Made by a program: the position numbers and the translations under genes. 64,000 nt of DNA from the NCBI GenBank assembly GCA_041662745.1, contig JBAZRV010000003.1, positions 56,034-120,033 on the forward strand. Direction: 5' to 3'. Below are positions 554 to 55,945 of this stretch, one piece after another; position 1 is the first letter of the stretch; each line of letters begins with the position of its first letter. The DNA is from Patescibacteria group bacterium (GTDB lineage Bacteria; Patescibacteriota; Patescibacteriia; 2-01-FULL-39-33). Below the pieces are notes generated by a model. The model did not search any database. It was given only the letters and a program-made list of their open reading frames with translations, and was not told where the DNA came from.

Positions 554-1789
554 ATGCGATTTACCGAAACCGTCAAACTGTCTTTTTCTGTTTTGCGCAC
601 CAACCGAACGCGCAGTTTTTTGACTTCTTTGGGAATTATTATCGGTATTGCCGCCGTTATTGTGATTATTTCCGCCGGCGCCGGAGCACAATCGCTTATC
701 GTTAACCAATTCAACGCTATCGGCACTAATTTAATAGGTGTTCTTCCCGGCGCCAGCGATGAGAACGGTCCGCCCGCTTCCGCTTTCGGCATTATTTTGC
801 AGACGCTCAAATACGAGGATGCTCAAGCAATTGCGCAAACAATACCGCACGCCAGCGCCGTCTCTTCCTATAATACCGGGGTGGCCACGGCATCTTATCA
901 GGGCGCTAAAGTGGATACCACTTATTACGGCGTTATGCCCGATTACGTGTTGGTTGAGGATACGGGAGTGGAGACAGGGAGATTTTTCGGGGATGACGAG
1001 GACCGGGGCAGTTCAAAAGTTGCCGTATTGGGCTGGCAGGTGGCGCAGGATTTGTTTGGCGGTCAGGATGCCGTGGGTCGCAAGATAAAAATCGGCAAGG
1101 AATTTTTTGAAGTGATCGGGGTAATGCGCAAGCGCGGCGTTTCCGGCTTCCAAAACAATGATAATATTATTCTAATACCGGCGCAGACCGCGCAAAAAAT
1201 AATGCTGGGCGTGCGTCATGTAAATTTCATCCGCGTTAAGGTTGATCAGCAGGAAAATCTGCCGCAAACCGTAGAAGACATCCGTTTTTTGTTGCGCGAT
1301 CGCCATAACTTACTGGAATCAAAGGTTGATGATTTTAATATCCGCAACACAGCCGATGCTATCAAAACCTTAACCTCCATTACCGACGTGTTGAAGTTTT
1401 TCCTGGCCGCCATCGCCAGCATCTCTTTGCTGGTCGGCGGCGTGGGCGTAATGAATATCATGTTAGCTTCGGTCAATGAGCGCGTTCGTGAAATCGGTTT
1501 GCGCAAGGCCGTGGGCGCCAAGCCCGGTGATATTATGGTGCAGTTTTTGGCTGAATCGGTTACCGTCACGTTGGCCGGAGGGGTTATCGGCATTATTATC
1601 GGTTCACTGATTTCGGCGTTGGTTGCCGTAGTCGCCAAATACCTGGGCTATGATTGGGATTTGGTGGTCTCGCCGCTGTCAATATTTATGGGTTTTGGCG
1701 TGGCTTTTGTCGTGGGTTTGATTTTTGGCATTTATCCGGCCACTCGCGCGGCCAAACTTAACTCCATTGAGGCGCTAAGGTGGGAATAG
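554..1789 (+). CDS. ABC transporter permease, MacB/FtsX family (411 aa)
   Basis: N-terminal TM, large periplasmic domain, C-terminal 3 TM; typical MacB/LolE-family end ...FGIYPATRAAKLNSIEALRWE; 2 nt after ATPase gene. Confidence 0.85.
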   Translation: MRFTETVKLSFSVLRTNRTRSFLTSLGIIIGIAAVIVIISAGAGAQSLIVNQFNAIGTNLIGVLPGASDENGPPASAFGIILQTLKYEDAQAIAQTIPHASAVSSYNTGVATASYQGAKVDTTYYGVMPDYVLVEDTGVETGRFFGDDEDRGSSKVAVLGWQVAQDLFGGQDAVGRKIKIGKEFFEVIGVMRKRGVSGFQNNDNIILIPAQTAQKIMLGVRHVNFIRVKVDQQENLPQTVEDIRFLLRDRHNLLESKVDDFNIRNTADAIKTLTSITDVLKFFLAAIASISLLVGGVGVMNIMLASVNERVREIGLRKAVGAKPGDIMVQFLAESVTVTLAGGVIGIIIGSLISALVAVVAKYLGYDWDLVVSPLSIFMGFGVAFVVGLIFGIYPATRAAKLNSIEALRWE

Positions 1790-1924
1790 GGGAGTTAATG
1801 TTCAGTTGCTAACGGATCGGCTTTTAGTTAATAGATCGCTTATTTTTAGGCGATTTTTTTAATTTAATTTTGTCTAATTTTACGTATTTATTGATAATTA
1901 AATTAGAAAAAGTGGATAAAACAC

Positions 1925-1953
1925 TTGACAAAATATTTAAGGTGTGATATAAT
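1925..1953 (+). promoter_or_regulatory. consensus sigma70 promoter: -35 TTGACA (1925-1930), 17-nt spacer, extended -10 TGaTATAAT (1945-1953)
   Basis: exact TTGACA-N17-TATAAT with TG at -15/-14 read directly from sequence; predicted TSS about 1960, upstream of a GC-rich structured region. Confidence 0.6.
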
Positions 1954-1959
1954 AGTTTA

Positions 1960-2910
1960 TTCAAGATGATGGTTGTGGATAACTGAACAAAATTCAATTA
2001 TTGACAATATCATCTTGTGGCAGTTTAAAAGCTGTTTTAAAAGAGTTCTTCGGAGCTCTTTGTCAGGGCGGCATACGGCTTATGTCGTGTGTCGCCCTTG
2101 ACAAAGGTTTCTGAAAAGCGATGGCTAATTCTTGTTGATGGCTGTTTTTTTGAGTGGACATAGTCCGAACAGTATCGGCGAGAACGGTTGCAACGCAGAA
2201 ATCCAGGGTTCTTGGGTGGTATCGGCTGAAGGTGCCAATCCGACTTCGGGTCGGTCGCAGCTAATGCTTAAATAAAAAAATCGACCGAAGGCCGATGCCC
2301 CCAAGAATCCGACCTAAGAATCAGAAATGCACTTTAACGGCTGACTTAATTACGGTCAGCCCTCCACTTAAGCTCAGGATAAATCATGATCTTAACGGGA
2401 GCTTGAACATTACTAAGCATTCATCTGCGGCAGTTTGTCGCCGCATCGATATGATTAAGGCGTATGCTTGTCCGCCTGATCAAGTCCAAAGCCAAAAGCC
2501 GAGGATTTTGGGAGGAGATTGAGCTGAAGAGGGGGCATGGTTTGAAATTATATATTTACCAATCGCCTTAATTCACTTCTTCAAGTCTTGATTATATCGA
2601 TGCGGTAGCAATGTTTGGCCGTCAAGCAGGCGGGCAAACGCGCGCCGCAAGCACTTTCTTTGAAAGAAGAATTTCCCCACCGTCGGGCCATTATCCCGCC
2701 GGATCGGTAGACTTCCTCCTTTCTCTGGGGAGGCGTCATGTAACCGCATGCGCCTCCCCCACACGCCTCAGACAGTATGGTTCGAGGGCGCATAATCAAA
2801 TCCTCACAAGGGAAGCTTGGTTTTACGCTTACGGCTTAAGTACTGTTTGAGGCGTGTGTTTTAAAACGGCATTTCATTCTACGAGCAATCTCGTGAAGGA
2901 GGGTCTGTCT
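1960..2910 (+). ncRNA. unclassified GC-rich highly structured RNA (long 5' leader of zinc-ribbon operon or independent ncRNA)
   Basis: no credible ORF with RBS over ~950 nt; GC visibly above flanks; many perfect hairpins (UUCG-loop hairpins at 2042-2059 and 2244-2258; 18-bp helix 2760-2777/2841-2858; long-range helix 2207-2225/2292-2310); mutually exclusive hairpins around 2715-2757. Confidence 0.35.
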
Positions 2911-3093
2911 ATGGTAATTCAATGTTGCGTTTGCTCCAAGGTGCGTTCGGCCGGTACTTGGGAAGTCCGGAGCATCCCTCCCGGGGAGCAGGTTTCCCAC
3001 GGCTATTGCCCAGAATGCGCCGAAAAAGTGTTTCAGGGCATAGAGCGGGAGTTGGCCGCGCGACAAAAGAAGGAGGAGACCGTCAATGGCTAA
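2911..3093 (+). CDS. small zinc-ribbon protein (60 aa), CxxC ... YCPxCAE
   Basis: ATG at 2911 preceded by AGGAGGG (2897-2903); Cys pairs CCVC and CPEC; stop overlaps start of paralog (ATGGCTAA). Confidence 0.6.
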   Translation: MVIQCCVCSKVRSAGTWEVRSIPPGEQVSHGYCPECAEKVFQGIERELAARQKKEETVNG

Positions 3094-3286
3094 AGGTAAG
3101 TGTCCGGCTTGCTTCAAAGTTGAAGTAGCGCCGGGACAATGGAAGAATGTCGCCTTGCCGGTCGGCGAGGAAACATTTCCCCAATATTGTCCAAAGTGTG
3201 CCGAACACAACGCTTATGTTCGGGGGAGCATCCTGGCATCCAAGAGGTTGGCGGATGCGGCCCTGGCCTCGGCGTCGGGCAAATAG
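3086..3286 (+). CDS. small zinc-ribbon protein paralog (66 aa), CPAC ... YCPKCAE
   Basis: RBS GAAGGAGGAG upstream; same Cys spacing and shared YCPxCAE motif with preceding ORF; translationally coupled. Confidence 0.6.
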   Translation: MAKGKCPACFKVEVAPGQWKNVALPVGEETFPQYCPKCAEHNAYVRGSILASKRLADAALASASGK

Positions 3287-3293
3287 TTCAATG

Positions 3294-3322
3294 AAGGAGG
3301 AGGCTGCGCGCTTCCTCCTTTA
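3294..3322 (+). terminator. hairpin aaggaggagg-ctgcgcg-cttcctcctt with short T tract
   Basis: 10-bp stem (1 mismatch) immediately after zinc-ribbon operon stop; weak U-run. Confidence 0.4.
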
Positions 3323-3497
3323 AAATTAATTTTGATTTATCCACAGCCAGACTCTTGACACTATATTGTTTTTATAAAAATTTAAGATATAATTTTATAT
3401 TAAGGGATGACACTAAGCGTCAGGCATTTTCAATCGCACTTTCCTAAAAACATTTTTAGGATCACACTTAAGTGTGATTTCGAAAATTCTCGTCGCG

Positions 3498-3526
3498 TCT
3501 TCTCCAAGTCCCGCCCATGTGGCGGG
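3498..3526 (+). terminator. intrinsic terminator-like hairpin gtcccgcc-catg-tggcgggac + TTTTAATT
   Basis: 8-bp perfect GC-rich stem followed by T-run; lies in a hairpin-rich 200-nt intergenic stretch (perfect hairpin atcacact-taa-gtgtgat at 3459-3477). Confidence 0.45.
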
Positions 3527-3555
3527 ACTTTTAATTGGCTGATTTTTTTGATTAG

Positions 3556-3564
3556 TGTTATAAT
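3556..3564 (+). promoter_or_regulatory. extended -10 promoter TGtTATAAT upstream of membrane-protein gene
   Basis: TGTTATAAT 22 nt upstream of ATG at 3586. Confidence 0.4.
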
Positions 3565-3585
3565 TTAATCAAGCAATCAAATCCT

Positions 3586-3963
3586 ATGTCGCTTAAGCAA
3601 TTAATCATCATCGTTGCCATTGCCACATTATTATGCTGGGCCAGCTGGTTGCTGGTCATTTTTGAGGTGGATCCGACGACTGCCGGCTTTTACGGCTTGC
3701 TGATTTTTTATGCCAGCATGTTTTTTTCTTTGCTCGGCTTATTTTTTTTGATCAGTTTCGGTTTCAGGAAGATTTTCAACAAGCTGGAAATGGAATACAG
3801 GCTGGTGGGCATGTCTTTCCGCCAATCGTTTTTCTTTGCCCTGGCAGTCGTCGGTTTCTTTTTTTTGCAAAGCAAGGATTTGCTGACTTGGTGGAATAGC
3901 ATTATGTTGCTGGCGGCTCTGGTGATTTTGGAATTTTTCTTTTTGAGTTATCGGAAAAAGTAA
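3586..3963 (+). CDS. hypothetical small membrane protein (125 aa, 4 predicted TM)
   Basis: long ORF, hydrophobic segments. Confidence 0.55.
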   Translation: MSLKQLIIIVAIATLLCWASWLLVIFEVDPTTAGFYGLLIFYASMFFSLLGLFFLISFGFRKIFNKLEMEYRLVGMSFRQSFFFALAVVGFFFLQSKDLLTWWNSIMLLAALVILEFFFLSYRKK

Positions 3964-4019: not shown

Positions 4020-4262
4020 CTTGTTATTTTTACTCTCTCATGTCATTCCTGGCTTGACCAGGAATCCAGGTTTTCCTGTCATCCTGAGGCGCACCTGCCT
4101 GCCGGTAGGCAGGGACGGGAATCCAGGTTATTTTTATCCGTCATTGCGAGCGAAGCCGTAATCGGCGAAGAGCGGCAATCTTTCAGTGAACATAAATGTG
4201 GCCTTCAATATTGCTTCGTTCCGCTACGCTACACTCGCAATGACGAAAAGCAATTTGACTAA
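4020..4262. repeat. cluster of 3 tandem MITE-like hairpin units, GTCATTCC...GGAATCCAGGTT family (third unit flanked by inverted repeats gtcattgcgagcg/cactcgcaatgac)
   Basis: units at about 4040-4072, 4078-4130, 4140-4250; each self-complementary; second copy of family at 55866-55945 shares cctgcct-N-ggcagg core and GGGAaTCCAGGTTATTTTT(a/g)TCATT. Confidence 0.6.
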
Positions 4263-4352: not shown

Positions 4353-5411
4353 ATGAAAGAAAAACTTAGCCAATTAAAGGCGCAATTCACCGAAGAATCG
4401 GCAAAGGTCAAATCAGCCAAAGAGCTGGAGGAGCTGGAGAGTAGATTTTTGAGTCGTAAAAGCGGACTGCTGACCGGTATCATGAAGGAGATCAAGGATG
4501 TGGCCAAGGAAGAGGTGGCGGAAATCGGCGCTTTGGCTAACGAAACCAAGGAATATATCGTTGAGGGACTGGCAGCGCTTAAGGGCAATTTGGCCGGCGC
4601 CGGCTCTTTTAATTTTGATTTTACCGTGCCCGGCCATAAGCCGCCGGTCGGACATTTGCATTTATCAACCATTGCCATCCGCGAAATTGAAAGCATTTTA
4701 GAGCCGTTGGGGTTCAAGCGTGTTAGGCATCCTGATATTGAATGGGATTATTATGCTTTTGAAACCCTGAATATGCCCGGAGATCATCCGGCGCGCGATG
4801 ATTGGGAAACTTTTTTTATTGATGAAGCGCCGATTAAGATGAATTTGCCGGCTAATTCCAAAAAACTGGTCAAAGAGGGGAGACGGCTGCTCACTCCGCA
4901 CACTTCCAGCATTCAGGTGCGTGAAATGGAAAAAGGCGAACTGCCGATTCGGATGATGAATATTTCCAAATGCTATCGCCGGCAGATTGATGTTTCCCAT
5001 GTGCCGATGTTCCATCAGTTTGAAGGACTGGTGATTGACAAGGGGATTAACATCACCCATTTGAAAGGCACGATTGATTATTTTGTTAAGAAATTTTTCG
5101 GCGAAGATCGGGTTATTCGTTTGCGTCCGCATCATTTCCAGTTTACCGAACCGAGTTTTGAGGTGGATATTTCCTGCGGTTTGTGCAATGGCGCGGGTTG
5201 CAAGATGTGCAAAGAGGGCTGGCTGGAACTGGCTGGCGCCGGCATGGTGCACCCCAATGTCCTAAAAGCCGGAGGAATTGATCCGGAGAAGTATTCCGGG
5301 TTTGCTTTCGGTTGGGGTGTGGAGCGATGTTTCTCAATGAAATCGGGACTTAATATTGATGATTTGCGGTTGATGTATAAGAATGATTTGAGGTTTAATG
5401 AACAGTTTTAA
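4353..5411 (+). CDS. pheS: phenylalanine--tRNA ligase alpha subunit
   Basis: class II motifs: FPFTEPS-like region FQFTEPSFEVD, GAGMVHPNVL, FAFGWGVERC; RBS AGAGGGAG. Confidence 0.93.
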   Translation: MKEKLSQLKAQFTEESAKVKSAKELEELESRFLSRKSGLLTGIMKEIKDVAKEEVAEIGALANETKEYIVEGLAALKGNLAGAGSFNFDFTVPGHKPPVGHLHLSTIAIREIESILEPLGFKRVRHPDIEWDYYAFETLNMPGDHPARDDWETFFIDEAPIKMNLPANSKKLVKEGRRLLTPHTSSIQVREMEKGELPIRMMNISKCYRRQIDVSHVPMFHQFEGLVIDKGINITHLKGTIDYFVKKFFGEDRVIRLRPHHFQFTEPSFEVDISCGLCNGAGCKMCKEGWLELAGAGMVHPNVLKAGGIDPEKYSGFAFGWGVERCFSMKSGLNIDDLRLMYKNDLRFNEQF

Positions 5412-5435
5412 GATTAATATCATAATTAGTATTAT

Positions 5436-5984
5436 ATGGGTAACCAAATTAAAAACAACAAATTAAAATATCTATTTTGGCTATCAAGTATAGCCATAAT
5501 ATTTTGGATAATTTTTGGTCTCGGCTTGCAAAGGGATTATAAGAACTGCGGTAGTGCAATCTCTAAAATTTCCTTTTTTGGAATAGTTTTGTATGAGTAC
5601 GATAATCCGTGTCCTGTTACAAATACAAAAACACCAGAATTAAGTGACTTAGATATATTTTCGATAGAAATTAATAGGCATCCAAATTTGAGAGGATTTC
5701 CATTTTCTGAAGTTGTAGATTTTTCTCGTTTTGATAAAAGTAATTTGAAAGCTATTTGGATGATTATATCATTTGTTTCATTATTGAATTTGATTTTTTA
5801 TTTTGTTTTTTTTCAAATACTATTTAAAATTTTAGATAAGGTTAGTAACAATTATAGAAAAATAGTTTTTATAATTTTGATGATTACGATTTCTCTTATA
5901 TTTTTAATTATATCATCTATAAATGCCAAATATTCTTTAAGTTATTTAACTTTCTATTCAATTTTAACAATTTTTAAATTGTAG
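5436..5984 (+). CDS. hypothetical membrane protein (182 aa), strongly AT-rich gene
   Basis: long ORF in markedly AT-rich segment inserted between pheS and pheT; N- and C-terminal TM segments. Confidence 0.5.
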   Translation: MGNQIKNNKLKYLFWLSSIAIIFWIIFGLGLQRDYKNCGSAISKISFFGIVLYEYDNPCPVTNTKTPELSDLDIFSIEINRHPNLRGFPFSEVVDFSRFDKSNLKAIWMIISFVSLLNLIFYFVFFQILFKILDKVSNNYRKIVFIILMITISLIFLIISSINAKYSLSYLTFYSILTIFKL

Positions 5985-41027: not shown

Positions 41028-41215
41028 GGTTTCTCCTTTGGCTTTTTGGCCGGTTGGCTGTCTGTAAACTTAATGTTTTTTAAATTTTAATGTGCTTGTC
41101 CGGTTATTCCAGAATATGAAATCTTAGCATATTTTAGATAAAATGTCAATATGTTGACATTTTGGCTAAAATCGGATATAATTAGGCATATTATCAATTA
41201 ACGTATTAAGCGTTT

Positions 41216-41518
41216 ATGAAAAAAGAAGTCCATCCTCAGTATTTTCCCCAAGCCAAGGTGATCTGCGCCTGCGGCAATGTTTTTAATGTCGGATCAACCC
41301 GAGAGGAAATCCAAGTTGAAATCTGTTCCGCTTGCCATCCGTTTTATACCGGCAAACAAAAATTACTGGATACGGCCCGTCGCGTTGATAAATTCGTTAA
41401 ACGTTCCGAGGCTAAATCCGTTAAGATTGGCGGTAAAAAAGTCAAAAAAGAAAAACAGAAAGCTATCAAGGCCGCCAAGAAAGCCGAGCAAGAGGGAGTG
41501 AAAATCGTCAAAAAATAA
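41216..41518 (+). CDS. rpmE: 50S ribosomal protein L31 with lysine-rich C-terminal extension
   Basis: MKKEVHPQY...CxC...[10 protein letters not shown]; 100 aa vs ~70 typical. Confidence 0.88.
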
Positions 41519-41594
41519 CTGCGATATAAAAAAGAATCCGGACATCTTAAGCGGTGGCGGATTCTTTTTATTTAAGGTATAATGGAAGAAAGTT

Positions 41595-53176: not shown

Positions 53177-53247
53177 CTCGGGGACAGGGGCTCGAACCCC
53201 GATTAACGGCTTCAAAGGCCGCTGTCCTACCATTAGACGATCCCCGA
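53177..53247 (-). tRNA. tRNA-Gln (anticodon UUG)
   Basis: cloverleaf folded by hand: acceptor TCGGGGA/TCCCCGA, D-arm GTCT-AATGGTA-GGAC, anticodon stem GCGGC/GCCGT with loop CTTTGAA, T-arm CGGGG-TTCGAGC-CCCTG, discriminator G; CCA not encoded. Confidence 0.85.
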
Positions 53248-55196: not shown

Positions 55197-55871
55197 TCAC
55201 ACTTCTTCGGGAGTTATTTTTTTACACTCCCCCTCTTTTAGGTCTGCCAACTTTAGCTTGCCTATCCTGATGCGTTTTAAATCTTCAACTTTGTAATCTA
55301 ACTGTTCGGCCATGCGGCGGATTTGGCGGTTGACGCCCTCTTTAAGAATCAGGGTCAGCCGGTTGCCTCGCTGTTTAATAATCCTGACCGGTTGGAGTTT
55401 TTTGCCGTCCAAGATCAATCCCCGCTCTATTTTTTGCGCGTCGGTTTTGGCCAGGGCGCGATCCAGTTCCACTTCATATTCCTTTTCGTGGCCGAATTTG
55501 GCCTGGGTCAGGCGATAGGCAAAATCGCCGTCATTGGTTAATATCAGCAAGCCCCGTGAATCTTTATCCAGCCTTCCCACCGGATAAATTCGCTGTTTAA
55601 TTTTAATCAAATCCAAAACCGATTTGCCTTGCGAACCGCTTGAGGAAGTGATATAGCCCCTGGGCTTGTTAAGCGCCAGATAGATTTTTTGCGTTTCTGT
55701 TTCCAGTTTCTTGCCGGCTATTTCTACGGCAGCGTTATTTTCATCAATTACCAGTCCCAAATCTTGGGCGGCCAAGCCGTTTACCTTCACTTTACCGGCT
55801 TTAATTAGCTCATCGGCTTTGCGTCTGGAACAGACTCCGGCTTGAGCAATGTATTTATTCAAACGAATCAT
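55197..55871 (-). CDS. rRNA pseudouridine synthase, RsuA/RluB family
   Basis: S4 domain (RLNKYIAQAGVCSRRKADELI), catalytic GRLDKDSRGLLILTNDG. Confidence 0.88.
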   Translation of the reverse strand: MIRLNKYIAQAGVCSRRKADELIKAGKVKVNGLAAQDLGLVIDENNAAVEIAGKKLETETQKIYLALNKPRGYITSSSGSQGKSVLDLIKIKQRIYPVGRLDKDSRGLLILTNDGDFAYRLTQAKFGHEKEYEVELDRALAKTDAQKIERGLILDGKKLQPVRIIKQRGNRLTLILKEGVNRQIRRMAEQLDYKVEDLKRIRIGKLKLADLKEGECKKITPEEV

Positions 55872-55945
55872 ATTTTGTCATTCCCGCGTACCTTGCCTAC
55901 TGGCAGGTAGAGGCGGGAGTCCAGGTTATTTTTGTCATTCTGAGG
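55866..55945. repeat. second copy of GTCATTCC...GGGAGTCCAGGTTATTTTTGTCATT MITE-like hairpin element
   Basis: shares core with 4078-4150 unit (cctgcct-N-ggcagg inner hairpin; cccgc/gcggg outer stem). Confidence 0.55.

What the first reader, a model, noticed from the sequence alone, without database searches (positions are those of the whole stretch)
1925..3322. Consensus promoter driving a ~950-nt GC-rich, highly structured noncoding RNA followed by two zinc-ribbon mini-proteins
A textbook sigma70 promoter (TTGACA-17-TGaTATAAT, 1925-1953) is followed by roughly 950 nt with no credible ORF. That stretch is clearly GC-richer than the AT-rich genome and packed with perfect helices. These include UUCG-loop hairpins at 2042-2059 and 2244-2258, and a long-range helix 2207-2225 with 2292-2310. 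There are also 7-bp hairpins at 2339-2361 and 2416-2439, a 9-bp inverted repeat 1962-1970/2009-2017 just after the TSS, and an 18-bp helix with one G.U at 2760-2777/2841-2858. Only then do two RBS-bearing small ORFs follow (2911, 3086), then a terminator-like hairpin (3294-3322). A leader of this size and order is far beyond ordinary riboswitches. It could be an independent large ncRNA with the Zn-ribbon genes downstream, or an elaborate cis-regulator. I checked by eye for RNase P (a GGGAAGUCCGG at 2956 lies inside the ORF, so it is not CR-I), tmRNA and SRP RNA signatures and found no convincing match.
Basis: seen in the sequence. Interest (0 to 1): 0.72.

Follow-up and report, generated by a model that had tools for sequence, protein, structure and literature searches.

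The report
New large structured leader RNA
A strongly promoted, about 950-base, tightly folded and conserved non-coding RNA of no known family sits in front of two tiny zinc-binding protein genes in an uncultivated Patescibacteria genome; it is probably a new regulatory or scaffold RNA and was found here in only seven distinct environmental sequences.

Summary
A perfect sigma-70 promoter (1925-1953, 12/12 plus TG) is followed by about 950 nt with no conserved reading frame. This stretch folds far better than shuffles (z = -12.7; minus strand -7.4). Two overlapping, paralogous Zn-ribbon mini-ORFs (2911-3093, 3086-3286) and a hairpin (3293-3320) follow.

No Rfam 15 family matches. Six other distinct homologous loci were found, all in Patescibacteria-like contigs and all behind the same promoter. 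In syntenic genomes the RNA core is 87-90% identical, while flanking genes are 82-86% identical and the mini-ORFs 70-78%.

Two modules are shared by the divergent members and show compensatory changes:
- a 50-nt hairpin, H1 (7 of 25 pairs);
- a three-way-junction domain, D2 (14 of 49 pairs).

The 3' half is specific to the window's subgroup, and 280 nt (2114-2392) occur only in this genome.

My best reading is a new cis-acting leader that controls translation of the mini-proteins through Shine-Dalgarno sequestration by a mimic of the 16S rRNA tail (2712-2724). The main rival is an OLE-like ribonucleoprotein RNA. That the RNA is real is well supported. The mechanism is inferred.

The parts
1925..1953 (+). 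Consensus sigma-70 promoter with extended -10 (TTGACA-17-TGaTATAAT); the transcription start near 1960 is inferred
   Evidence: 12/12 match. It is one of two perfect promoters in 64 kb. The same promoter precedes the RNA in all 7 homologous loci.
1962..2017 (+). 5'-proximal long hairpin, variable among relatives, containing a conserved perfect DnaA-box sequence (TGTGGATAA, 1974-1982)
   Evidence: MFE and alifold; 9-bp perfect base verified; DnaA box found and conserved.
2042..2059 (+). P0 UUCG hairpin; its 3' strand can pair instead in the outer extension of H1
   Evidence: Verified. Compensatory changes in L081. The competing outer helix covaries across 7 sequences.
2050..2114 (+). H1: conserved long hairpin (UUGUYAGGGCGnCA..UUAU loop..UGUCGCCCU(A)UGACAA) with an invariant central stem and covarying outer and apical stems; family-wide module
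   Evidence: Alignment A6 of 7 loci: 7 of 25 pairs have double changes, 0/500 shuffles reach this. CM R1 scores 68-97 bits in all 7 loci and hits nowhere else.
2114..2392 (+). Expansion of about 280 nt specific to this genome (hairpins about 2106-2203, 2206-2310 including the UUCG hairpin 2240-2254, 2339-2361, about 2363-2400); it replaces a 40-55 nt linker hairpin of relatives
   Evidence: Absent from L081, L085 and L100. No similar sequence in any other locus or elsewhere in the window. Local folds.
2427..2444 (+). GCGGC/GCCGC hairpin; its GCCGC arm can pair instead with GCGGU 2602-2606 as an extension of P1
   Evidence: covarying P1-extension pairs (columns 59/217 and 61/215).
2446..2600 (+). 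D2: three-way-junction domain closed by a long helix P1 (2446-2460 with 2587-2600). Invariant junction strings are AAGGCGUAUGCUUGUCCGCC, GGAGG, AAGCU and UCACUUCUU. It is the second family-wide module.
   Evidence: CM R2: 175-185 bits in the window's subgroup, 74.6 bits in L120, 26.9 bits in L086. 14 of 49 pairs have double changes against 4.5 in shuffles (0/500), and 96.6% of cells are paired.
2613..2710 (+). Middle helices of the window's subgroup (hairpin 2613-2640; CCGUCGGG/CCCGCCGG region); the most variable part within the subgroup
   Evidence: L100 diverges here and L085 carries an 18-nt loop insertion.
2712..2724 (+). Anti-Shine-Dalgarno mimic CUUCCUCCUUUCU; CCUCCUUUCU equals the canonical 3' tail of bacterial 16S rRNA (recalled from general knowledge, not checked here)
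   Evidence: Pairs with the ORF1 RBS in the alifold consensus and in the partition functions of L081 and L100. CTTCCTCCTTT occurs only twice in 64 kb, both in this unit (expected 0.01).
2727..2759 (+). Hairpin GGGGAGGCG / CGCCUCCCC (an SD-like arm paired with an anti-SD-like arm)
   Evidence: L100 reads GGGGAAGCG / CGCUUCCCC, which by hand is a compensating G-C to A-U change; the tool's alignment A7 offsets this stretch and scores it as unpaired.
2760..2858 (+). 3' domain closed by an 18-bp helix (2760-2777 with 2841-2858), invariant in sequence on both strands in 4 genomes; a possible RNase III-type processing site (inferred)
   Evidence: (helix 15: 18 of 19 pairs never vary).
2881..2903 (+). 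Small hairpin (ACGAG-CAAU-CUCGU) abutting the ORF1 Shine-Dalgarno sequence GAAGGAGGG (2895-2903)
   Evidence: In L100 a hairpin of different sequence (AUAU/AUAU) appears to take its place (read from the sequence; the tool's alignment scores these pairs as broken). The SD is predicted paired with P about 0.8-1.0 in 5 of 6 loci.
2911..3093 (+). ORF1: 60-aa Zn-ribbon mini-protein (CCVC...W...SHGYCPxC family), NCBI locus tag WC668_02745
   Evidence: The family has 143 cluster representatives. AF2 model pLDDT 92.5: four strands plus a long C-terminal helix.
3086..3286 (+). ORF2: 66-aa paralogous Zn-ribbon mini-protein (WC668_02750), overlapping ORF1 by 8 nt, which suggests translational coupling
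   Evidence: Differences from L081 by codon position are 7/10/24, which indicates purifying selection on a protein.
3293..3320 (+). Terminal hairpin GAAGGAGGAGGC...GCUUCCUCCUU (an SD-like arm paired with a second copy of the anti-SD mimic); the likely terminator of the unit
   Evidence: Conserved in L081 but not in L085. The U-tract is weak (AAAAUUAAUUU).

Best explanation
This is a genuine, previously unclassified structured RNA. It forms the long 5' untranslated part of a strongly transcribed operon for two translationally coupled Zn-ribbon mini-proteins.

Anatomy. Two modules are shared by the divergent members: hairpin H1 and the three-way-junction domain D2. Lineage-specific helices have been added around them, much like expansion segments: a 3' half of about 260 nt in the window's subgroup, plus 280 nt only in this genome.

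Proposed mechanism (inferred). The RNA acts in cis. H1 and D2 are the sensing part, for an unknown ligand that could be the mini-proteins themselves or a metal ion. The 3' part is the expression platform. There a mimic of the 16S rRNA tail (CUUCCUCCUUUCU, 2712-2724) and a local hairpin compete for the ORF1 Shine-Dalgarno sequence (2895-2903). This would set translation of ORF1 and, by coupling, of ORF2.

Shown: promoter sequence, non-coding nature, strand-specific structure, conservation above the neighbouring genes, covariation in H1 and D2, and absence from Rfam.
Inferred: transcription start, co-transcription with the ORFs, SD sequestration, and the existence of a ligand.
For: Real RNA:
- Fold z = -12.7 on the + strand against -7.4 on the - strand. 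G.U pairs make up 12-16% of pairs.
- The core 2427-2870 is 90% (L081) and 87% (L085) identical. Against the same genomes, macB is 83% and 82% identical with 38-40% of third codon positions changed; against L081, pheS is 86% and the upstream spacer 75%, and ORF1 and ORF2 are about 70% and 78%.
- There is no 3-periodicity, and frame-shifting indels occur.
- Covariation: D2 has 14 of 49 pairs with double changes (shuffles 4.5, 0/500; slid controls 1-3). H1 has 7 of 25 (0/500). The 3' half has 8 of 157 (1/500).

Cis-acting leader:
- In all 7 loci the RNA starts directly after the same consensus promoter. In 6 it is followed on the same strand by a small ORF; in L086 this is a called 59-aa gene of doubtful reality, ahead of the mini-protein gene.
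- No + strand intrinsic terminator lies between 1954 and 2911 in the window.
- The downstream gene is not always the same. In L120 it is a 107-aa protein of unknown family, and in L098 an 84-aa ORF follows H1 directly. A shared RNA in front of different genes is the usual pattern for riboswitch-like elements.
- The ORF1 SD is predicted paired (P about 0.8-1.0) in 5 of 6 loci. The partner is the homologous anti-SD segment in L081 and L100, and also in the consensus fold.
- The anti-SD 11-mer occurs only twice in 64 kb, both in this unit.
- Alternative pairings (P0 against the H1 extension; the 2427-2444 hairpin against the P1 extension) are kept across relatives.
Against: - Only 7 distinct sequences are known and 4 of them are close relatives, so most helices of the 3' half never vary and cannot be tested.
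- Alignment A11 was fitted to the model, which favours the structure.
- SD pairing partners differ between loci: local in the window and L085, long-range in L081 and L100. L120's SD is mostly unpaired. SD occlusion is therefore not a conserved, demonstrated feature.
- A conserved leader of 650-950 nt is several times larger than known riboswitches or protein-binding leaders.
- The 18-bp helix is invariant on both strands, and the RNA is more conserved than the ORFs it would regulate. Both fit an RNA with a function of its own.
- A perfect promoter, otherwise seen here only before rpmE, fits a stable abundant RNA at least as well as a regulated mini-protein operon.
- No expression data exist.
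Confidence: 0.45

Rival explanations
1. A stand-alone large non-coding RNA that works as a ribonucleoprotein, in the manner of OLE RNA. The RNA is the functional product, possibly released by cleavage in the invariant 18-bp helix. The co-encoded Zn-ribbon mini-proteins are its protein partners.
For: - The RNA is more conserved than the mini-ORFs and than the flanking genes compared (macB, pheS).
- The promoter is of the strength seen before the r-protein gene rpmE.
- Peripheral helices expand in a modular way, as in stable structured RNAs.
- Long helices invariant in sequence suggest specific recognition.
- 5 of the 6 loci whose sequence extends to the gene after D2 carry a CCVC Zn-ribbon gene there.
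Against: - L120 has H1 and D2 but a different downstream protein, and no CCVC gene on its 2.8-kb contig.
- CCVC mini-protein genes in other Patescibacteria (L088, L089) and other phyla (L122, L124, L126) have no such RNA.
- ORF1 is acidic to neutral by residue count, which is not typical of RNA-binding proteins, and it evolves fast (57% aa identity to L081).
- There is no terminator or obvious 3' end before the ORFs.
Confidence: 0.3
2. A multi-gene operon of very small ORFs separated by structured spacers, so that part of the 'leader' is translated.
For: In the L086/L098 subgroup, the stretch between H1 and the CCVC gene contains called or plausible small ORFs with RBSs. These are 59 aa in L086 and 84 aa plus another in L098.
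Against: In the window's subgroup no ORF is conserved. There are stops in all frames, frame-shifting indels and non-periodic substitutions. The window-specific ORF 2295-2522 begins inside the 280-nt insert that relatives lack.
Confidence: 0.07
3. A feature at the DNA level rather than an RNA: a decayed gene, a mobile-element remnant, or protein-binding inverted repeats such as DnaA-related sites.
For: Conserved perfect DnaA boxes flank the unit. Several stems are invariant in sequence, including the H1 centre and the 18-bp helix.
Against: - The fold is strongly asymmetric between strands, with many G.U pairs.
- Compensatory changes keep the helices.
- The locus is single-copy and syntenic in three genomes.
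- Neither the H1 nor the D2 pattern was found in viral contigs, and the RNA 2036-2870 has no blastn match in phage records.
- DnaA boxes are not enriched in the window as a whole, and there is no GC-skew turn.
Confidence: 0.05
4. A known housekeeping or catalogued RNA (RNase P, tmRNA, 6S, SRP, OLE, GOLLD, ROOL, raiA, group I/II intron) too divergent for the covariance models.
For: CPR RNAs can be divergent. Only 64 kb of the genome was available, so the genome's own rnpB, ssrA and similar genes could not be located for comparison.
Against: - There is no Rfam hit at gathering score in the window. There is none credible at E <= 10 in 1700-3700 or at E <= 5 in the minimal L120 copy.
- ARAGORN (the tRNA/tmRNA finder) was not run.
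- A housekeeping RNA would not shrink to 290 nt, lose its 3' half or gain 800 nt among relatives.
- The H1 pattern scan found only 6 true contigs among 241 million metagenome records, so its exact-sequence form is rare.
Confidence: 0.02

Closest known systems
OLE RNA and its Oap protein partners (Rfam OLE)
   Same: A large (about 600 nt), ornate, highly conserved bacterial RNA with a narrow phylogenetic range. It is co-transcribed with a small protein gene immediately downstream, and that protein is its partner (general knowledge; abstracts of PMC9723947 and PMC10898510).
   Different: No sequence or structure match. The adjacent proteins are soluble Zn ribbons, not membrane protein OapA. The host is Patescibacteria, not extremophilic Firmicutes. 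The core is smaller and the periphery far more variable.
Riboswitches and long cis-regulatory leaders (M-box, T-box, ribosomal-protein leaders)
   Same: Sits directly after the promoter and before an ORF. Has a junction domain with invariant junction nucleotides and covarying helices. Offers alternative pairings. The SD can be paired by an upstream anti-SD. The same RNA precedes different genes.
   Different: Three to five times longer in the window's subgroup. No terminator-type expression platform. No match to any Rfam cis-regulatory family. No ligand known. Only one copy was seen in the 64 kb of this genome that could be searched.
Phage Mu Com protein and the mom mRNA leader
   Same: A Zn-ribbon protein of about 60 aa that, as I recall, activates translation by binding a hairpin that occludes an SD. 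It is a precedent for a Zn-ribbon mini-protein acting on an mRNA leader.
   Different: No homology: Pfam's Com zinc-finger family, if I recall it correctly, is not among the hits. The Com target is a single short hairpin. Whether the mini-proteins here bind RNA is untested.
GOLLD, ROOL, raiA and HEARO large bacterial ncRNAs
   Same: Large structured bacterial RNAs of unknown or recently emerging function, found by comparative genomics.
   Different: No covariance-model match. Those families are widespread or phage-associated, whereas this RNA was not found in viral contigs or phage records.

Membership tests
Any Rfam 15 family (RNaseP_bact_a/b, tmRNA, 6S, SRP, OLE, GOLLD, ROOL, raiA, HEARO, group I/II introns, riboswitches) | Covariance-model score at or above the family's gathering threshold | tested here: not met
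   Whole window: only one tRNA, at 53177-53247. Region 1700-3700 at E <= 10: the best hits inside the RNA score 16-24 bits against thresholds of 42-100 bits and are unrelated families. Minimal copy L120 at E <= 5: nothing credible.
OLE-type ribonucleoprotein | Adjacent gene for an OapA-like membrane protein partner | tested here: not met
   The adjacent genes are soluble Zn ribbons. The 125-aa four-helix membrane protein further downstream (3586-3963) has no Pfam hit at E <= 1 and follows a separate terminator and promoter.
OLE-type ribonucleoprotein | Physical RNA-protein complex | not testable with these tools
   Needs binding assays or co-purification.
Riboswitch / cis-regulatory leader | Conserved aptamer-like domain with covarying helices and invariant junction nucleotides | tested here: met
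   D2: 14 of 49 pairs have double changes, 0/500 shuffles reach this, and the 20-nt junction string is invariant in 5 sequences. H1: 7 of 25 pairs.
Riboswitch / cis-regulatory leader | Expression platform: a terminator or a conserved SD-sequestering helix that alternates with the aptamer | tested here: inconclusive
   No intrinsic terminator in the leader. The SD is predicted paired in 5 of 6 loci, but with different partners. The anti-SD/SD helix appears in the alifold consensus of the window's subgroup.
Riboswitch / cis-regulatory leader | Specific ligand and ligand-dependent switching | not testable with these tools
   Needs in-line probing or reporter assays.
Zinc-ribbon proteins | Two CxxC-type knuckles on a small beta-sheet | tested here: met
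   C5, C8, C33 and C36 are invariant in 40 family members. The AF2 model has pLDDT 92.5, with four strands and a helix. Which metal is bound is not tested.
Phage Mu Com-type translational activators | Sequence membership of the Com zinc-finger family | tested here: not met
   No such Pfam hit at E <= 10. No significant PDB fold match; best E = 1.6.
Sigma-70 promoter | -35 and -10 hexamers at 17-nt spacing | tested here: met
   12/12 plus extended -10 TG, conserved in 7 loci. Promoter activity is not testable here.
Intrinsic terminator (3293-3320) | GC-rich hairpin followed by a U-tract | tested here: inconclusive
   The scan reports a 13-pair stem, but the tail is AAAAUUAAUUU and the hairpin is absent in L085.

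The most novel reading that the evidence does not exclude
A new class of large, ornate bacterial RNA (0.3-1.2 kb, with a conserved H1 + D2 core and helices that grow like expansion segments), restricted to a Buchananbacteria-like branch of Patescibacteria. It would act as a functional RNA in its own right. It might be a ribonucleoprotein with the co-encoded Zn-ribbon mini-proteins. Alternatively, its two copies of the 16S-tail mimic and several SD-like boxes might interact with ribosomes or mRNAs in trans. In this reading it is not merely a leader.
Probability: 0.27. Interest if true: 0.8.

Novelty: new variant of a known kind. Interest (0 to 1): 0.62.

Why it matters
Patescibacteria have tiny genomes with little non-coding DNA. 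Even so, this lineage keeps 0.65-0.95 kb of untranslated, tightly folded RNA behind one of its strongest promoters, and conserves it better than the neighbouring aminoacyl-tRNA synthetase gene. That implies an important function that no catalogued RNA family accounts for.

If it is a leader, it would be among the largest conserved cis-regulatory RNAs known in bacteria. It would also give a handle on a widespread Zn-ribbon mini-protein family that has no Pfam or NCBIfam model. If it is a stand-alone RNA, it adds a new member to the short list of large bacterial RNAs of unknown function, in a phylum where none has been described in the literature searched here.

The H1 and D2 covariance models built here make a full survey directly possible.

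Tried and rejected
1. Synteny search with the upstream MacB permease in GTDB representative genomes. None of the 80 loci, including the closest Buchananbacteria (64% aa identity), contains the RNA or the mini-ORFs. This used the only genome-contig scan.
2. Word-indexed protein search with ORF1 alone found only itself. Adding the paralog found L081's gene. The exhaustive profile search opened up the family.
3. Known RNA families: rejected by three Rfam scans.
4. Protein-coding or recoded gene: rejected.
5. Replication origin. Perfect DnaA boxes flank the unit, but boxes are not enriched in the window (20 found, 13.8 expected). There is no GC-skew inflection and genes stay on one strand. Rejected as an origin and kept as a side observation.
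6. Phage or mobile origin. Neither RNA pattern occurs in viral contigs and the RNA has no blastn match in phage records. There is no repeat of the region or of the 280-nt insert elsewhere.
7. A long structured leader as a general property of CCVC mini-protein genes: rejected. L088, L089, L122, L124 and L126 lack it.
8. Fold search with the mini-protein model found no significant match; the best were the Zn(Cys)4 sites of Fur/PerR at E > 1.
9. The 18-bp helix arm has no other target in the window.
10. Literature searches for the protein motif and for structured RNAs in Patescibacteria found nothing relevant.
Full report
**What is in the sequence**

The macB-type permease gene ends at 1789 and is followed by its own terminator-like hairpin (1833-1856). 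At 1925-1953 lies TTGACA-17-TATAAT preceded by TG, a 12/12 match. On both strands of the 64-kb window there is only one other perfect match, at 41154, and it drives rpmE (ribosomal protein L31).

From about 1960 to 2910 there is no credible ORF. The first good RBS, GAAGGAGGG at 2895-2903, precedes a 60-aa ORF (2911-3093). A second RBS and a 66-aa ORF (3086-3286) overlap it by 8 nt. A hairpin at 3293-3320 closes the unit.

The two products are paralogs (44% identity, E = 3e-8). They share the pattern CxxC...W...PxGE...YCPxC. NCBI annotates them as hypothetical proteins WC668_02745 and WC668_02750 of a 'Patescibacteria group bacterium'.

**Is the structure more than chance?**

The + strand 1960-2905 folds to -397.4 kcal/mol. 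Shuffles average -283.6 +/- 9.0, giving z = -12.7. The reverse complement reaches only z = -7.4. About 70% of bases are paired, and 12-16% of pairs are G.U, which would be A-C mismatches on the other strand.

Four other features are real but misplaced by up to 11 bases. GC content (0.45-0.58) resembles that of coding genes. It is higher than in other spacers (0.16-0.35) but is not exceptional for the genome.

**Known families**

cmscan against all 4227 Rfam 15 models finds only one tRNA in the window at gathering score. It finds nothing credible at E <= 10 in 1700-3700. It finds nothing in the minimal homolog either. The mini-proteins have no Pfam or NCBIfam family.

**Homologs**

Synteny through MacB in GTDB representative genomes gave nothing. 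The route that worked ran in steps:
- A profile of the mini-proteins was run against 1.84 billion representative proteins. It revealed a family of 143 clusters, with consensus MxVQCCVCxKVRxxGxW...VSHGYCPxCA.
- Members occur in many phyla. The motif also forms the C-terminal domain of longer proteins such as P0053 and P0231, the latter with a PAS domain.
- Looking up the closest members gave syntenic loci L081 (MAG WC473) and L084/L085 (Candidatus Buchananbacteria). It also gave a non-syntenic locus, L086/L087 (Buchananbacteria).
- A DNA pattern from the one hairpin shared by all of them was scanned over 241 million metagenome records. It returned 29 stretches, of which 6 are true: three re-finds plus L098, L100 and L120.
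- Viral contigs and phage records gave nothing.

In total there are 7 distinct sequences. All lie behind the same promoter, TTGACAA.AT......T.TGATATAAT.

**Conservation**

| Comparison with the window | L081 | L085 |
|---|---|---|
| macB gene, nt identity | 83% | 82% |
| Third codon positions changed in macB | 164/412 | 158/412 |
| RNA core 2427-2870 | 90% | 87% |

Further values against L081: pheS 86%, the spacer upstream of the promoter 75%, ORF1 about 70% (57% at the protein level), ORF2 about 78%.

The RNA is therefore the best-conserved element of the locus. Its substitutions are not 3-periodic (14/15/13), and 1-2-nt indels are common. ORF2 shows the coding pattern, with differences of 7/10/24 by codon position.

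**Architecture**

The family is modular. Two modules are shared by the divergent members (D2 could not be checked in L098, whose contig ends too soon).

- **H1 (window about 2050-2114).** A hairpin of about 50 nt with an invariant central stem, a UUAU loop, and covarying apical and outer stems. 7 of 25 pairs carry double changes. This is reached by 0 of 500 shuffles, and slid controls give 0-4.
- **D2 (2446-2600).** A three-way junction closed by a long helix, with invariant junction strings. A covariance model built from it scores 74.6 bits in L120 and 26.9 bits in L086. On the model-fitted alignment, 14 of 49 pairs carry double changes, against 4.5 +/- 1.6 in shuffles (0/500) and 1-3 in slid controls. 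96.6% of cells are paired. The caveat is that this alignment was fitted to the structure.

The other loci differ around these modules:
- L120 is a minimal version. The order is promoter, H1, D2, then a 107-aa protein of unknown family, with a leader of about 290 nt.
- In L086 and L098 the stretch between H1 and D2 holds about 800 nt, including possible small ORFs.
- The window's subgroup (window, L081, L085, L100) adds a 3' half (2607-2870). It contains an 18-bp helix that is invariant on both strands.
- The window alone has 280 extra nucleotides (2114-2392). They expand a small linker hairpin into several helices.

Neither model finds a second copy in the window or in other Patescibacteria loci.

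**How it may work**

No + strand intrinsic terminator lies inside the leader, so transcriptional attenuation is unlikely.

The 3' half contains CUUCCUCCUUUCU (2712-2724). Its last ten bases equal the canonical 3' tail of bacterial 16S rRNA; this is general knowledge, and the rRNA of this organism is not in the window. In the consensus fold this segment pairs with the ORF1 Shine-Dalgarno sequence, while the adjacent GGGGAGGCG/CGCCUCCCC hairpin forms. L100's version of that hairpin reads GGGGAAGCG/CGCUUCCCC, which by hand looks compensatory, but the tool's alignment offsets this stretch and scores it as unpaired.

In partition functions the SD is paired with P about 0.8-1.0 in 5 of 6 loci. The partner is the anti-SD in L081 and L100 but a local stem in the window and L085. 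L120's SD is largely free.

The 11-mer CTTCCTCCTTT occurs exactly twice in 64 kb (expected 0.01). Both copies are in this unit, and the second forms the terminal hairpin.

Mutually exclusive pairings are kept across relatives: P0 against the H1 extension, and the 2427-2444 hairpin against the P1 extension.

Taken together with the different downstream genes in L120 and L098, I favour a cis-acting translational regulator, with H1 and D2 as the sensor.

Several points fit a functional RNA product, possibly an OLE-like RNP with the mini-proteins, almost as well:
- the size of the RNA;
- the r-protein-grade promoter;
- conservation above that of the ORFs;
- the helices that are invariant in sequence.

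I give the two readings 0.45 and 0.30.

**The mini-proteins**

AlphaFold2 with a 40-sequence alignment gives a confident model (pLDDT 92.5): a four-stranded Zn ribbon followed by a long helix. No PDB chain matches significantly.

In other Patescibacteria and in other phyla these genes stand alone, next to unrelated neighbours and without the RNA. The association is therefore specific to this lineage.

**Limits**

- Only seven sequences are known and four of them are close. Most helices of the 3' half never vary and so say nothing about structure.
- The transcription start, co-transcription with the ORFs and any processing are inferred.
- E-values from the home-made covariance models are rough.
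- The pattern scan required an exactly conserved H1, so more distant relatives were certainly missed.

Noticed in passing
window 3355-3538: A second candidate small RNA lies just after the unit. It has a promoter-like TTGACA (3355) and TATAAT (3388), then about 135 nt that fold strongly (-50.8 kcal/mol, z = -6.8). It ends in a clean intrinsic terminator (GUCCCGCC..GGCGGGAC-UUUU, 3509-3535). It is highly conserved across L081 and L085 (about 89% to L085 by blastn), and L085 has a 150-nt insertion right after the terminator. No Rfam match.
   Followed up: partly
window 1974-1982 (-) and 3337-3345 (+); L081 5154 and 6244; L085 4261, 4324 and 5525; L100 182; L098 216; L086 5926: Perfect 9-mer DnaA boxes (TTATCCACA) flank the RNA/mini-ORF unit. 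They are conserved at the same places in the syntenic genomes. One lies at about +15 of the main promoter and one just upstream of the second promoter. This is not an origin: boxes are not enriched in the window and there is no skew turn. DnaA-dependent control of both promoters is possible.
   Followed up: partly
window 2911-3286 and proteins P0004-P0238: The CCVC...SHGYCPxC Zn-ribbon mini-proteins form a widespread family with no Pfam or NCBIfam model (143 clusters at 50% identity). Members occur in Hydrogenedentes, Desulfobulbaceae, Thermodesulfobacteriota and Patescibacteria. The same module forms the C-terminus of longer proteins, one of which has a PAS domain.
   Followed up: partly
window 4070-4140 and 55870-55936: A palindromic element of about 45-70 nt (GUCAU.C...UGCCUGCCGGUAGGCAGG..CGGGAAUCCAGGUUAUUUUU) occurs twice in the window at about 80% identity, both times in spacers. 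The first copy lies in the 390-nt gap upstream of pheS.
   Followed up: partly
L086 4079-4330 and 4593-4675; L098 895-975: In the L086/L098 subgroup the long stretch between H1 and D2 carries repeated long-range helices built on CCAAAACUAUCUUG / CAAGAUAGUUUUGG, together with small ORFs that have RBSs. The L086 unit continues into a second Cys-rich mini-ORF (5249-5437) and feoA.
   Followed up: no
window 41154-41520: The only other perfect consensus promoter in the window drives rpmE (ribosomal protein L31, Zn-ribbon form with CxC...CxxC). It serves as a benchmark for how strong the promoter at 1925 is likely to be.
   Followed up: yes
window 3586-3963: A 125-aa protein with four predicted membrane helices and no Pfam family lies between the unit and pheS. 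Its position is conserved in all three syntenic genomes, and it has its own promoter (3535-3564).
   Followed up: no
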